Assembly (NCBI RefSeq): GCF_006345805.1
Contig: NW_021827948.1
Location: 1-9,678 of the forward strand
Source of the DNA: Octopus sinensis
Lineage: Eukaryota
Direction of reading: 5' to 3'
Length of the DNA: 9,678 bases
Below are positions 5,085 through 5,222 of this stretch, in pieces. The notes beneath the pieces are model-generated. The model made no database searches and was not told the origin of the DNA. It saw only the letters and a list, made by a program, of their open reading frames with translations. Made by a program: the position numbers and the translations under genes. Every line of letters begins with the position of its first letter. Within the stretch, counting starts at the first letter, position 1.

Positions 5085-5222
5085 CCTTCCCTCTTGAGCC
5101 GTCCTCGATCTCCTGTTTCTGAAGAAGAGCTATGCTCGAAACGTTACACAACCTTTCTTTCCTTCACTCAGCGTCTTTTAATACTTTGCATGTACACACG
5201 CCCTCACGTTGTGTTTTTCTTC
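5085..5222 (+). mobile_element. Penelope-like element terminal-repeat fragment C
   Basis: Carries the best hammerhead motif and is homologous to fragments A and B. It is cut at 5222 by a SINE. Confidence 0.6.
5114..5150 (+). ncRNA. Minimal type I hammerhead ribozyme motif
   Basis: Stem I TGTTT (5114-5118) / ACACA (5146-5150, one mismatch); core CTGAAGA (5119-5125) plus an extra A; stem II GAGC-tat-GCTC; GAA; palindromic ACGT (5141-5144); predicted cleavage after T5145. Confidence 0.62.

What the first reader, a model, noticed from the sequence alone, without database searches (positions are those of the whole stretch)
5114..5150. Minimal hammerhead ribozyme motif with intact core, extra A and palindromic stem III
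Seen: TGTTT-CTGAAGA-A-GAGC-tat-GCTC-GAA-ACGT-T-ACACA. Known: CUGANGA...GAAA...UH is the hammerhead core, and Penelope-like retroelements carry minimal type I hammerheads whose palindromic stem III needs two motifs to pair as a dimer. Inferred: this is a self-cleaving or once self-cleaving RNA in a Penelope-type terminal repeat. It is atypical in having an A inserted before stem II, a GUU cleavage triplet and one stem I mismatch.
Basis: partly seen in the sequence, partly recalled or inferred. Interest (0 to 1): 0.75.

Follow-up and report, generated by a model that had tools for sequence, protein, structure and literature searches.

The report
Minimal hammerhead in Penelope retroelement end
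This is a real but ordinary copy of a known miniature hammerhead RNA motif, predicted to cut itself only as a pair, lying in an old end-piece of a Penelope-type jumping gene with thousands of copies in this animal genome; the ends of those copies suggest the RNA is likely copied into DNA uncut.

Summary
The motif is there as described (0 of 200 shuffles give it). It is one solo copy of a dispersed ~240-nt repeat (2,973 exact matches of one 33-nt pattern, 0 control) that forms the pseudo-LTR of a Neptune/Nematis-type Penelope-like element: 17 of 29 loci picked by the GIY-YIG endonuclease alone carry it downstream, 14 of 29 picked by the ORF start carry it ~400 nt upstream. The three 'atypical' traits are not: the extra A and the ACGU/GUU end are the published consensus of PLE minimal hammerheads, and the stem I mismatch (C5147) is an allele; locus-spanning contigs in two DNA runs read the family A. 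Stem I covaries across subfamilies. None of 90 copies picked without the motif starts at the cut site, matching in vitro work in which a PLE hammerhead needs the element's protein and is dispensable for insertion. Side result: sister lineages with altered cores (U4C, 4,907 exact matches; A6U, 11,742, one at window 1547-1582) outnumber canonical ones. Cleavage was not tested and no RNA run was listed. The scan has reported this kind on other DNA (21 findings, at least 11 genomes). Verdict: new member of a known kind.

The parts
5114..5150 (+). Minimal type I hammerhead motif (family A, subfamily A1): stem I 5114-5118/5146-5150, core 5119-5125, extra A 5126, stem II 5127-5137, GAA 5138-5140, palindrome 5141-5144, predicted cut after 5145
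   Evidence: consensus match to PMC4209133 Fig. S3
5147..5147 (+). Position 1.2: C in the assembled allele (mismatch with U5117); A in the family and in another allele of this locus
   Evidence: A in 47 of 47 and 29 of 29 family copies; A in locus-spanning contigs of runs X1 and X2, C in one X1 contig
5085..5223 (+). Solo, 5'-shortened pseudo-LTR of a Neptune/Nematis-type Penelope-like element; 82-88% identical to its 39 best relatives; no ORF or 3' UTR attached
   Evidence: 4912-5083 matches none of 342 other loci
5224..5605 (+). Unrelated abundant SINE-like repeat inserted at the 3' end of the pseudo-LTR (not part of the motif)
   Evidence: present in 128 of 342 loci; inverted second copy at about 3834-4225; SINE label is inference from a tRNA-like head
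3236..3272 (-). Second, decayed family A motif (C at core position 4, A at position 8, stem I damaged) in a solo pseudo-LTR at about 3165-3335; points away from the 5114 copy
1547..1582 (+). Third motif, sister family B: same stem II and palindrome, stem I pair 4 switched to C-G, U instead of A at core position 6; in a solo pseudo-LTR at about 1480-1668
   Evidence: 11,742 exact genome matches with U6 against 118 with A6

Best explanation
The motif is a standard minimal hammerhead inside an old solo end-repeat (pseudo-LTR) of a Penelope-like retrotransposon; in the parent element it is predicted to cut only when two motifs pair through their ACGU palindromes, likely with help from the element's protein, and this lone copy is likely a passive fossil. 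Shown: sequence anatomy; thousands of dispersed copies; the same repeat on both sides of an RT plus GIY-YIG ORF (about 400 nt before the ORF start in A2 subfamilies and 1-2 kb after the endonuclease), so a full-length transcript would carry two motifs; stem I covariation between subfamilies. Inferred from literature: dimer cleavage after position 17, slow and protein-assisted. Inferred from copy ends: reverse transcription starts about 100-145 nt after the cut site and runs through the uncut motif; most short copies end 76-127 nt before the cut site, which likely marks the RNA 5' end. The window copy is such a short cDNA, further shortened, later hit by a SINE, and one allele has since lost stem I pair 2.
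For: 2,565 candidates, 40 scored at 82-88% besides itself; 2,973 exact pattern matches, 0 for the reversed control. 17 of 29 non-self loci picked by the endonuclease segment alone have the window element downstream on the same strand within the 1.5-kb flank, 1 more inverted; 2 further ones on extending 20 regions. L196 has RT, CX4CX2C linker, GIY-YIG (Pfam E 5e-4, below cut-off) and the motif in that order. 14 of 29 non-self loci picked by the ORF start have the motif 375-447 nt upstream. Stem I pair 4 in 176 distinct copies of families A and B: G-C 77, C-G 41, G.U 21, A-U 6; 149 of 176 paired against a permutation mean of 88, maximum 106. In 47 copies from flank-picked loci, majority frequency is 0.90 at 13 core positions, 0.65 at 7 free positions, 0.79 in flanks (p 7e-4). 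Copies starting at the cut site: 0 of 30 (3' flank-picked), 0 of 30 (A ORF-picked), 0 of 30 (B 5' UTR-picked). PMC4209133 (monomer inactive, dimer weakly active); PMC11167929 (cleavage only with PLE protein, not needed for insertion, no RNA ends at the cut site).
Against: No cleavage assay; no intact ORF found for family A, and the 5' pseudo-LTR was shown for A2 subfamilies, not for the window's own A1. Covariation rests on one pair and on related sequences, so the permutation figure is not a probability; stem II and stem III show almost no covariation within A and B (the 20 rows were hand-picked). The 47 'blind' copies were still located with a reference that holds the motif, and flanks hold homopolymers that lower their score. 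Nearest-neighbour energies favour inactive folds over the active dimer even for intact copies (-8.9 to -9.9 against -19.3 kcal/mol; -1.5 against -17.5 for the window allele; no tertiary terms). One full-length B copy (L200) begins 3 nt after the cut site. The allele with A5147 has a perfect motif, so 'fossil' rests on its being solo and old, not on damage.
Confidence: 0.85

Rival explanations
1. In this PLE lineage the fold is kept mainly as a structural element (RNA pairing through the palindrome, or a binding site for the element's protein) and catalysis is dispensable.
For: Exact matches with changed cores outnumber canonical ones: C4 4,907 against U4 2,973 in family A, U6 11,742 against A6 118 in family B. 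The U6 family is young (5' UTR copies 99-100% identical), has RT-EN ORFs and tandem junctions, yet keeps stem I by a compensatory pair, stem II and the palindrome. Changes at A6 and U4C lower activity in canonical hammerheads (PMC3088659). 0 of 90 copies start at the cut site.
Against: The other core letters stay fixed in both variant lineages; U4C still supports viroid infectivity; protein could rescue weak cores; other PLE families here keep the compensated U3-A8 core, which points to selection on catalysis. Exact-match counts favour young families and cover four patterns only. Two single substitutions could be drift.
Confidence: 0.3
2. This copy is an active, host-relevant ribozyme: when transcribed it cuts with a second copy in trans, or lends its intact enzyme half to other family transcripts.
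For: All core letters intact; the mismatch lies only on the substrate strand and another allele lacks it; thousands of potential partners share the palindrome.
Against: Solo copy; the two other motifs in the window are on the opposite strand or have altered cores; min-HHR monomers were inactive and dimers slow in vitro; stem I is only 4-5 mostly A-U pairs; a damaging allele is present at the locus.
Confidence: 0.07
3. It is a unit of a non-autonomous, non-LTR retrozyme or SINE that spreads as a circular RNA.
For: Most copies are short solo units with similar ends; family B forms head-to-tail arrays of about 420-570 nt with a motif in each unit (L318, L322-L324, L328).
Against: The repeat is continuous with the 3' UTR, endonuclease and ORF start of a coding PLE; unit ends do not coincide with the cut site; the window copy is not in tandem.
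Confidence: 0.05
4. Chance match in a repeat-rich sequence.
For: No Rfam hit; folding z-score -0.56.
Against: 0 of 200 shuffles; thousands of copies, position in pseudo-LTRs, covariation, match to the published consensus.
Confidence: 0.01

Closest known systems
Minimal hammerheads (min-HHR) of metazoan PLE pseudo-LTRs, Cervera and De la Pena 2014, PMC4209133 (read: main text parts 1-2 of 4; supplement file 2 part 2 of 3 and search passages; file 1 not searchable)
   Same: Type I, short stem I, extra nucleotide after A9, G10.1-C11.1, loopless palindrome, mostly solo copies, a few in full PLEs; published consensus NNN CUGANGAH G...C GAAAN palindrome NU H NNN fits letter for letter
   Different: Short stem II (4 bp, 3-nt loop); no cephalopod row among those I saw; sister lineages with C4 or U6 are absent from the 44 rows seen (their descriptor would have excluded them)
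PAc (Poseidon) element of Anolis, PMC11167929 (read: passages and section 3 part 2)
   Same: Hammerhead in the pseudo-LTR, reverse transcription starting about 100 nt downstream of it, insertion into AT-rich DNA, uncut RNA as template
   Different: In PAc the ORF starts within stem II; here the ORF starts about 400 nt after the motif, and the element has a CX4CX2C linker
Neptune/Nematis EN+ Penelope-like elements, Craig et al. 2021, PMC8557442 (read: passages)
   Same: RT followed by Zn-finger-like linker and C-terminal GIY-YIG, hammerhead near the 3' end, partial tandems, microsatellite targets
   Different: Clade not resolved by a tree here; long (1-2 kb) 3' UTR
Small dimer-cleaving PLE hammerheads of Lunse, Weinberg and Breaker 2017 (not held; seen only as cited in review PMC6765202 passages)
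   Same: Diminished palindromic stem III, dimer cleavage, PLE association
   Different: Could not check whether this family or the core variants are among their representatives
Metazoan non-LTR retrozymes (preprint 10.64898/2026.07.22.740005, part 1 of 5 read; PMC7229834, search listing only)
   Same: Type I hammerhead, PLE origin proposed
   Different: Those are non-coding tandem units; the window copy is a solo end of a coding element

Membership tests
PLE minimal hammerhead (min-HHR) | Core CUGANGA ... GAAA ... UH | tested here: met
PLE minimal hammerhead (min-HHR) | Extra nucleotide between 9 and 10.1; G10.1-C11.1 pair | tested here: met
   A5126, G5127-C5137; 43 of 47 and 29 of 29 copies; trait listed in PMC4209133
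PLE minimal hammerhead (min-HHR) | Palindromic 15.2-16.2, no loop 3 | tested here: met
   ACGU 5141-5144
PLE minimal hammerhead (min-HHR) | Short stem I supported by covariation | tested here: met
   Family level: pairs 1-3 paired in 166-170 of 176, pair 4 in 149 of 176 with four pair types. The assembled allele breaks pair 2; another allele does not
PLE minimal hammerhead (min-HHR) | Lies in the pseudo-LTR flanking an RT-EN ORF | tested here: met
   Family level; the window copy itself is solo
PLE minimal hammerhead (min-HHR) | Self-cleavage as a dimer | not testable with these tools
   Only secondary-structure energies
Neptune/Nematis-type EN+ PLE | RT followed by C-terminal GIY-YIG endonuclease | tested here: met
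   L196, L200: tblastn to intact PLE ORFs of this genome, Pfam GIY-YIG E 5e-4 and 2e-3, RVT_1 E 0.017, all below curated cut-offs on broken fragments
Neptune/Nematis-type EN+ PLE | Zn-finger-like CX2-5CxxC linker between RT and EN | tested here: met
   CX4CX2C in both families
Neptune/Nematis-type EN+ PLE | Placement in the clade by RT phylogeny | not tested
   No named reference proteins were in hand
Canonical hammerhead (Rfam models) | Score to an Rfam hammerhead model; stable stem III; loop 1-loop 2 contacts | tested here: not met
   No hit; both flanks of stem I are pyrimidine-rich, so no closing stem or loop 1
Non-LTR retrozyme | Non-coding head-to-tail units each with a hammerhead | tested here: not met
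   Window copy solo; family continuous with a coding element

The most novel reading that the evidence does not exclude
In this PLE lineage the hammerhead has turned from an enzyme into a structural RNA handle: two sister lineages fixed core changes predicted to cripple cutting (U4C, A6U), kept stems I and II and the dimer palindrome, and became the most abundant and youngest families (16,649 of 19,740 exact matches to four patterns), always copied from uncut RNA. The canonical window motif would then be the ancestral state of a natural series that separates catalysis from RNA pairing in Penelope transposition.
Probability: 0.3. Interest if true: 0.5.

Novelty: new member of a known kind. Interest (0 to 1): 0.22.

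Why it matters
The motif itself adds one more genome to a class described in 2014. What is useful is the natural series in one lineage (canonical, U4C, A6U cores on the same scaffold, with a young coding family for the A6U form): it offers ready-made substrates for the open question of what PLE hammerheads do, cut the RNA or hold it together for the element's protein.

Tried and rejected
Rfam, whole window and local: no hammerhead hit. GIY-YIG profile search first: found other PLE families with intact 775-781 aa ORFs but no link to family A. Apparent upstream extension in L055 belonged to family B, and that in L016 to another repeat. My strict descriptor (stem I of 3 or more contiguous pairs) misses the window allele and finds only the 1547 motif; 0 of 300 shuffles gave a hit. 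Pairing of the 5114 motif with the other two window motifs: one is on the opposite strand, the other 3.6 kb away with a different stem I pair; predicted active heterodimer -0.7 kcal/mol. Idea that copies start at the cut site: 0 of 90, one stray case (L200). Idea that C5147 is a base-call error: not upheld, one contig carries it. RNA evidence: no RNA holder listed. Bacterial promoter scan: irrelevant, at chance level. ARAGORN: no tRNA. Print searches: hammerhead+octopus(+Penelope) gave no description of this family; hammerhead with A6U or U4C gave no PLE example; general searches. Lunse et al. 2017 and supplement file 1 of PMC4209133 could not be seen and may list these variants. No rate figure for GUU was found (GUU is listed as a cleavable triplet); that it is slower than GUC is recalled.

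Full report
Observation. The window is microsatellite- and repeat-rich animal DNA; its genome G000 has 2.72 Gb ('octopus-like' is my recall of such repeats and a scan note, not a tool result). At 5114-5150 (+) lies the motif as described: stem I 5' strand, CUGAAGA, extra A, 4-bp stem II with 3-nt loop, GAA, ACGU, U, stem I 3' strand with one mismatch. A general core pattern matches once, 0 of 200 shuffles. Rfam has no hit and the 37-mer folds no better than shuffles.

Family. The 146 nt around it gave 2,565 candidates; the 39 best non-self matches are 82-88% identical, so the copy is old. One 33-nt pattern has 2,973 exact matches against 0 for the reversed control. Typical copies are solo units from about 110 nt before to 100-145 nt after the predicted cut site, usually ending in (TA)n or similar microsatellite. 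The window copy starts only about 35 nt before the core and is followed at 5224 by an unrelated abundant repeat.

Link to a Penelope-like element. Walking upstream from copies with longer 5' extensions led through a long 3' UTR to a GIY-YIG fragment (L165, L171). A search with that endonuclease segment alone returned 29 non-self loci, 17 with the window element downstream on the same strand within the flank and 1 inverted; 2 more appeared when 20 regions were extended. L196 holds RT, a CX4CX2C linker, GIY-YIG and the motif in order, broken by stops and frameshifts. A search with the ORF start alone returned 29 non-self loci, 14 with the motif 375-447 nt upstream (A2 subfamilies). The repeat therefore flanks the ORF on both sides, the pseudo-LTR layout, and a full transcript would carry two motifs. 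Linker and domain order fit Neptune/Nematis as described in PMC8557442 (passages); no tree was built.

The 'atypical' traits. PMC4209133 lists a nucleotide between 9 and 10.1, G10.1-C11.1 and a palindromic 15.2-16.2 as conserved traits; of 44 rows of its Fig. S3 that I saw, 26 have the extra A and 12 end in ACGU-U. In this family the extra A is in 43 of 47 copies found in 59 flank-picked loci and 29 of 29 similarity-picked ones; position 17 is mostly A or U; position 1.2 is A in all 76. Laying two public DNA runs of one study on the locus showed A5147 in the locus-spanning contigs of both and C5147 in one short contig of X1: the mismatch is a real allele, not a fixed trait.

Structure under selection. 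In the 47 copies, majority frequency was 0.90 at core, 0.87 at stem, 0.65 at free positions (7, loop 2, 17, outer stem I) and 0.79 in flanks (caveats in the Against line). Across 176 distinct copies of families A and B from all loci fetched to that point, stem I pairs 1-3 pair in 166-170, pair 4 in 149 as G-C 77, C-G 41, G.U 21, A-U 6 and others, pair 5 in only 51: a 4-bp stem I with one covarying pair. Stems II and III hardly vary.

Mechanism. With no loop 3, A15.1-U16.1 cannot close within one motif; two motifs pairing ACGU with ACGU give two sites, each made of the core and stem II of one RNA and the substrate strand of the other (model from PMC4209133 and review PMC6765202). The C5147 allele damages only the substrate strand; it costs about 3.7 kcal/mol per site in nearest-neighbour terms, and inactive folds are favoured for all copies. 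In vitro, Schistosoma min-HHR monomers did not cut and dimers cut slowly; the Anolis PLE hammerhead cut only with the element's protein, and cutting was not needed for insertion (PMC11167929). Copy ends agree: none of 30 copies picked by the 3' flank, 30 by the A ORF start or 30 by the B 5' UTR begins at the cut site; one other copy, L200, begins 3 nt after it. These are top-scoring samples, not a census. The idea of testing copy ends came from scan notes e1-9988462 and e1-8169724.

Sister lineages. The window holds two more motifs: a decayed family A copy at 3236-3272 (-) and a family B copy at 1547-1582 (+) with U at position 6. Family B's endonuclease is 63% identical to A's over 134 aa; U6 has 11,742 exact matches against 118 for A6, was found in 24 of 26 incidental 4-nt-loop copies (the other 2 are family A copies with an insertion), and marks a young subfamily (99-100% identity) with tandem junctions and short arrays. 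Within family A, C at position 4 has 4,907 exact matches against 2,973 for U; some U4 copies may be CpG decay of C4 copies (inference). Changes at A6 and U4C reduce activity in canonical hammerheads, though U4C supports viroid infectivity (PMC3088659 passages). I found no PLE example of A6U or U4C in print, but could not see Lunse et al. 2017; scan notes report similar altered cores in other genomes.

Verdict. Observation confirmed; identity as a PLE minimal hammerhead well supported; atypicality not supported; catalysis untested; no RNA holder listed. New member of a known kind, interest 0.22; the structural-handle reading of the lineage has probability about 0.3.

Noticed in passing
window 1547-1582 (+); L091-L120, L200-L203, L314-L343: Family B: young, coding Neptune/Nematis-type PLE whose hammerhead has U at core position 6 family-wide (11,742 exact matches against 118 with A6) yet keeps stems and palindrome; forms short tandem arrays of about 420-570 nt.
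   Followed up: yes
genome-wide pattern; L285, L288, L294, L295, L299, L300, L310; window 3236-3272 (-): A family A subfamily with C at core position 4 (4,907 exact matches) outnumbers the canonical form.
   Followed up: partly
L121-L128: Other PLE families with intact 775-781 aa RT-EN ORFs; one has the compensated U3-A8 core with a 6-nt palindrome about 0.6-1 kb after the ORF.
   Followed up: partly
L135-L163, 250-350 nt after the matched segment: Another repeat family with a CUGANGA box, very short stem II and GAA followed by U within an AAUAUU palindrome; hammerhead-like but off-consensus at 14/15.1; often in inverted arrangements.
   Followed up: no
L200 about 7190-7210 (-): A near full-length family B element whose 5' end begins 3 nt after the predicted cut site, next to an unrelated hairpin element; single case.
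   Followed up: partly
window 1261-1402: Imperfect palindrome with arms of about 45 nt, roughly 80% complementary by eye; MITE-like hairpin element just upstream of the family B copy.
   Followed up: no
window 1768-2860 (-) and 6100-6850 (-): Two copies of the 3' end of a LINE-like element (96% over 168 nt) with cysteine-rich coding remnants; Tx1-like label is recalled, Pfam gave no real hit.
   Followed up: partly
window 106-552 (+): 148-aa open frame resembling the C-terminal end of a CR1/L2-type LINE ORF2 (recalled; no Pfam hit), ending in a (TTAAC)n tail.
   Followed up: partly
window 3834-4225 (-), 5224-5605 (+), 8249-8640, 8880-9185: Abundant SINE-like repeats (in 128, 128, 82 and 48 of 342 loci); the first two form an inverted pair around the finding; 8295-8639 is a 184-nt tandem duplication.
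   Followed up: partly
window 3090-3152 (-): tRNA-like remnant, Rfam 25.3 bits (cut-off 29); not called by ARAGORN.
   Followed up: partly
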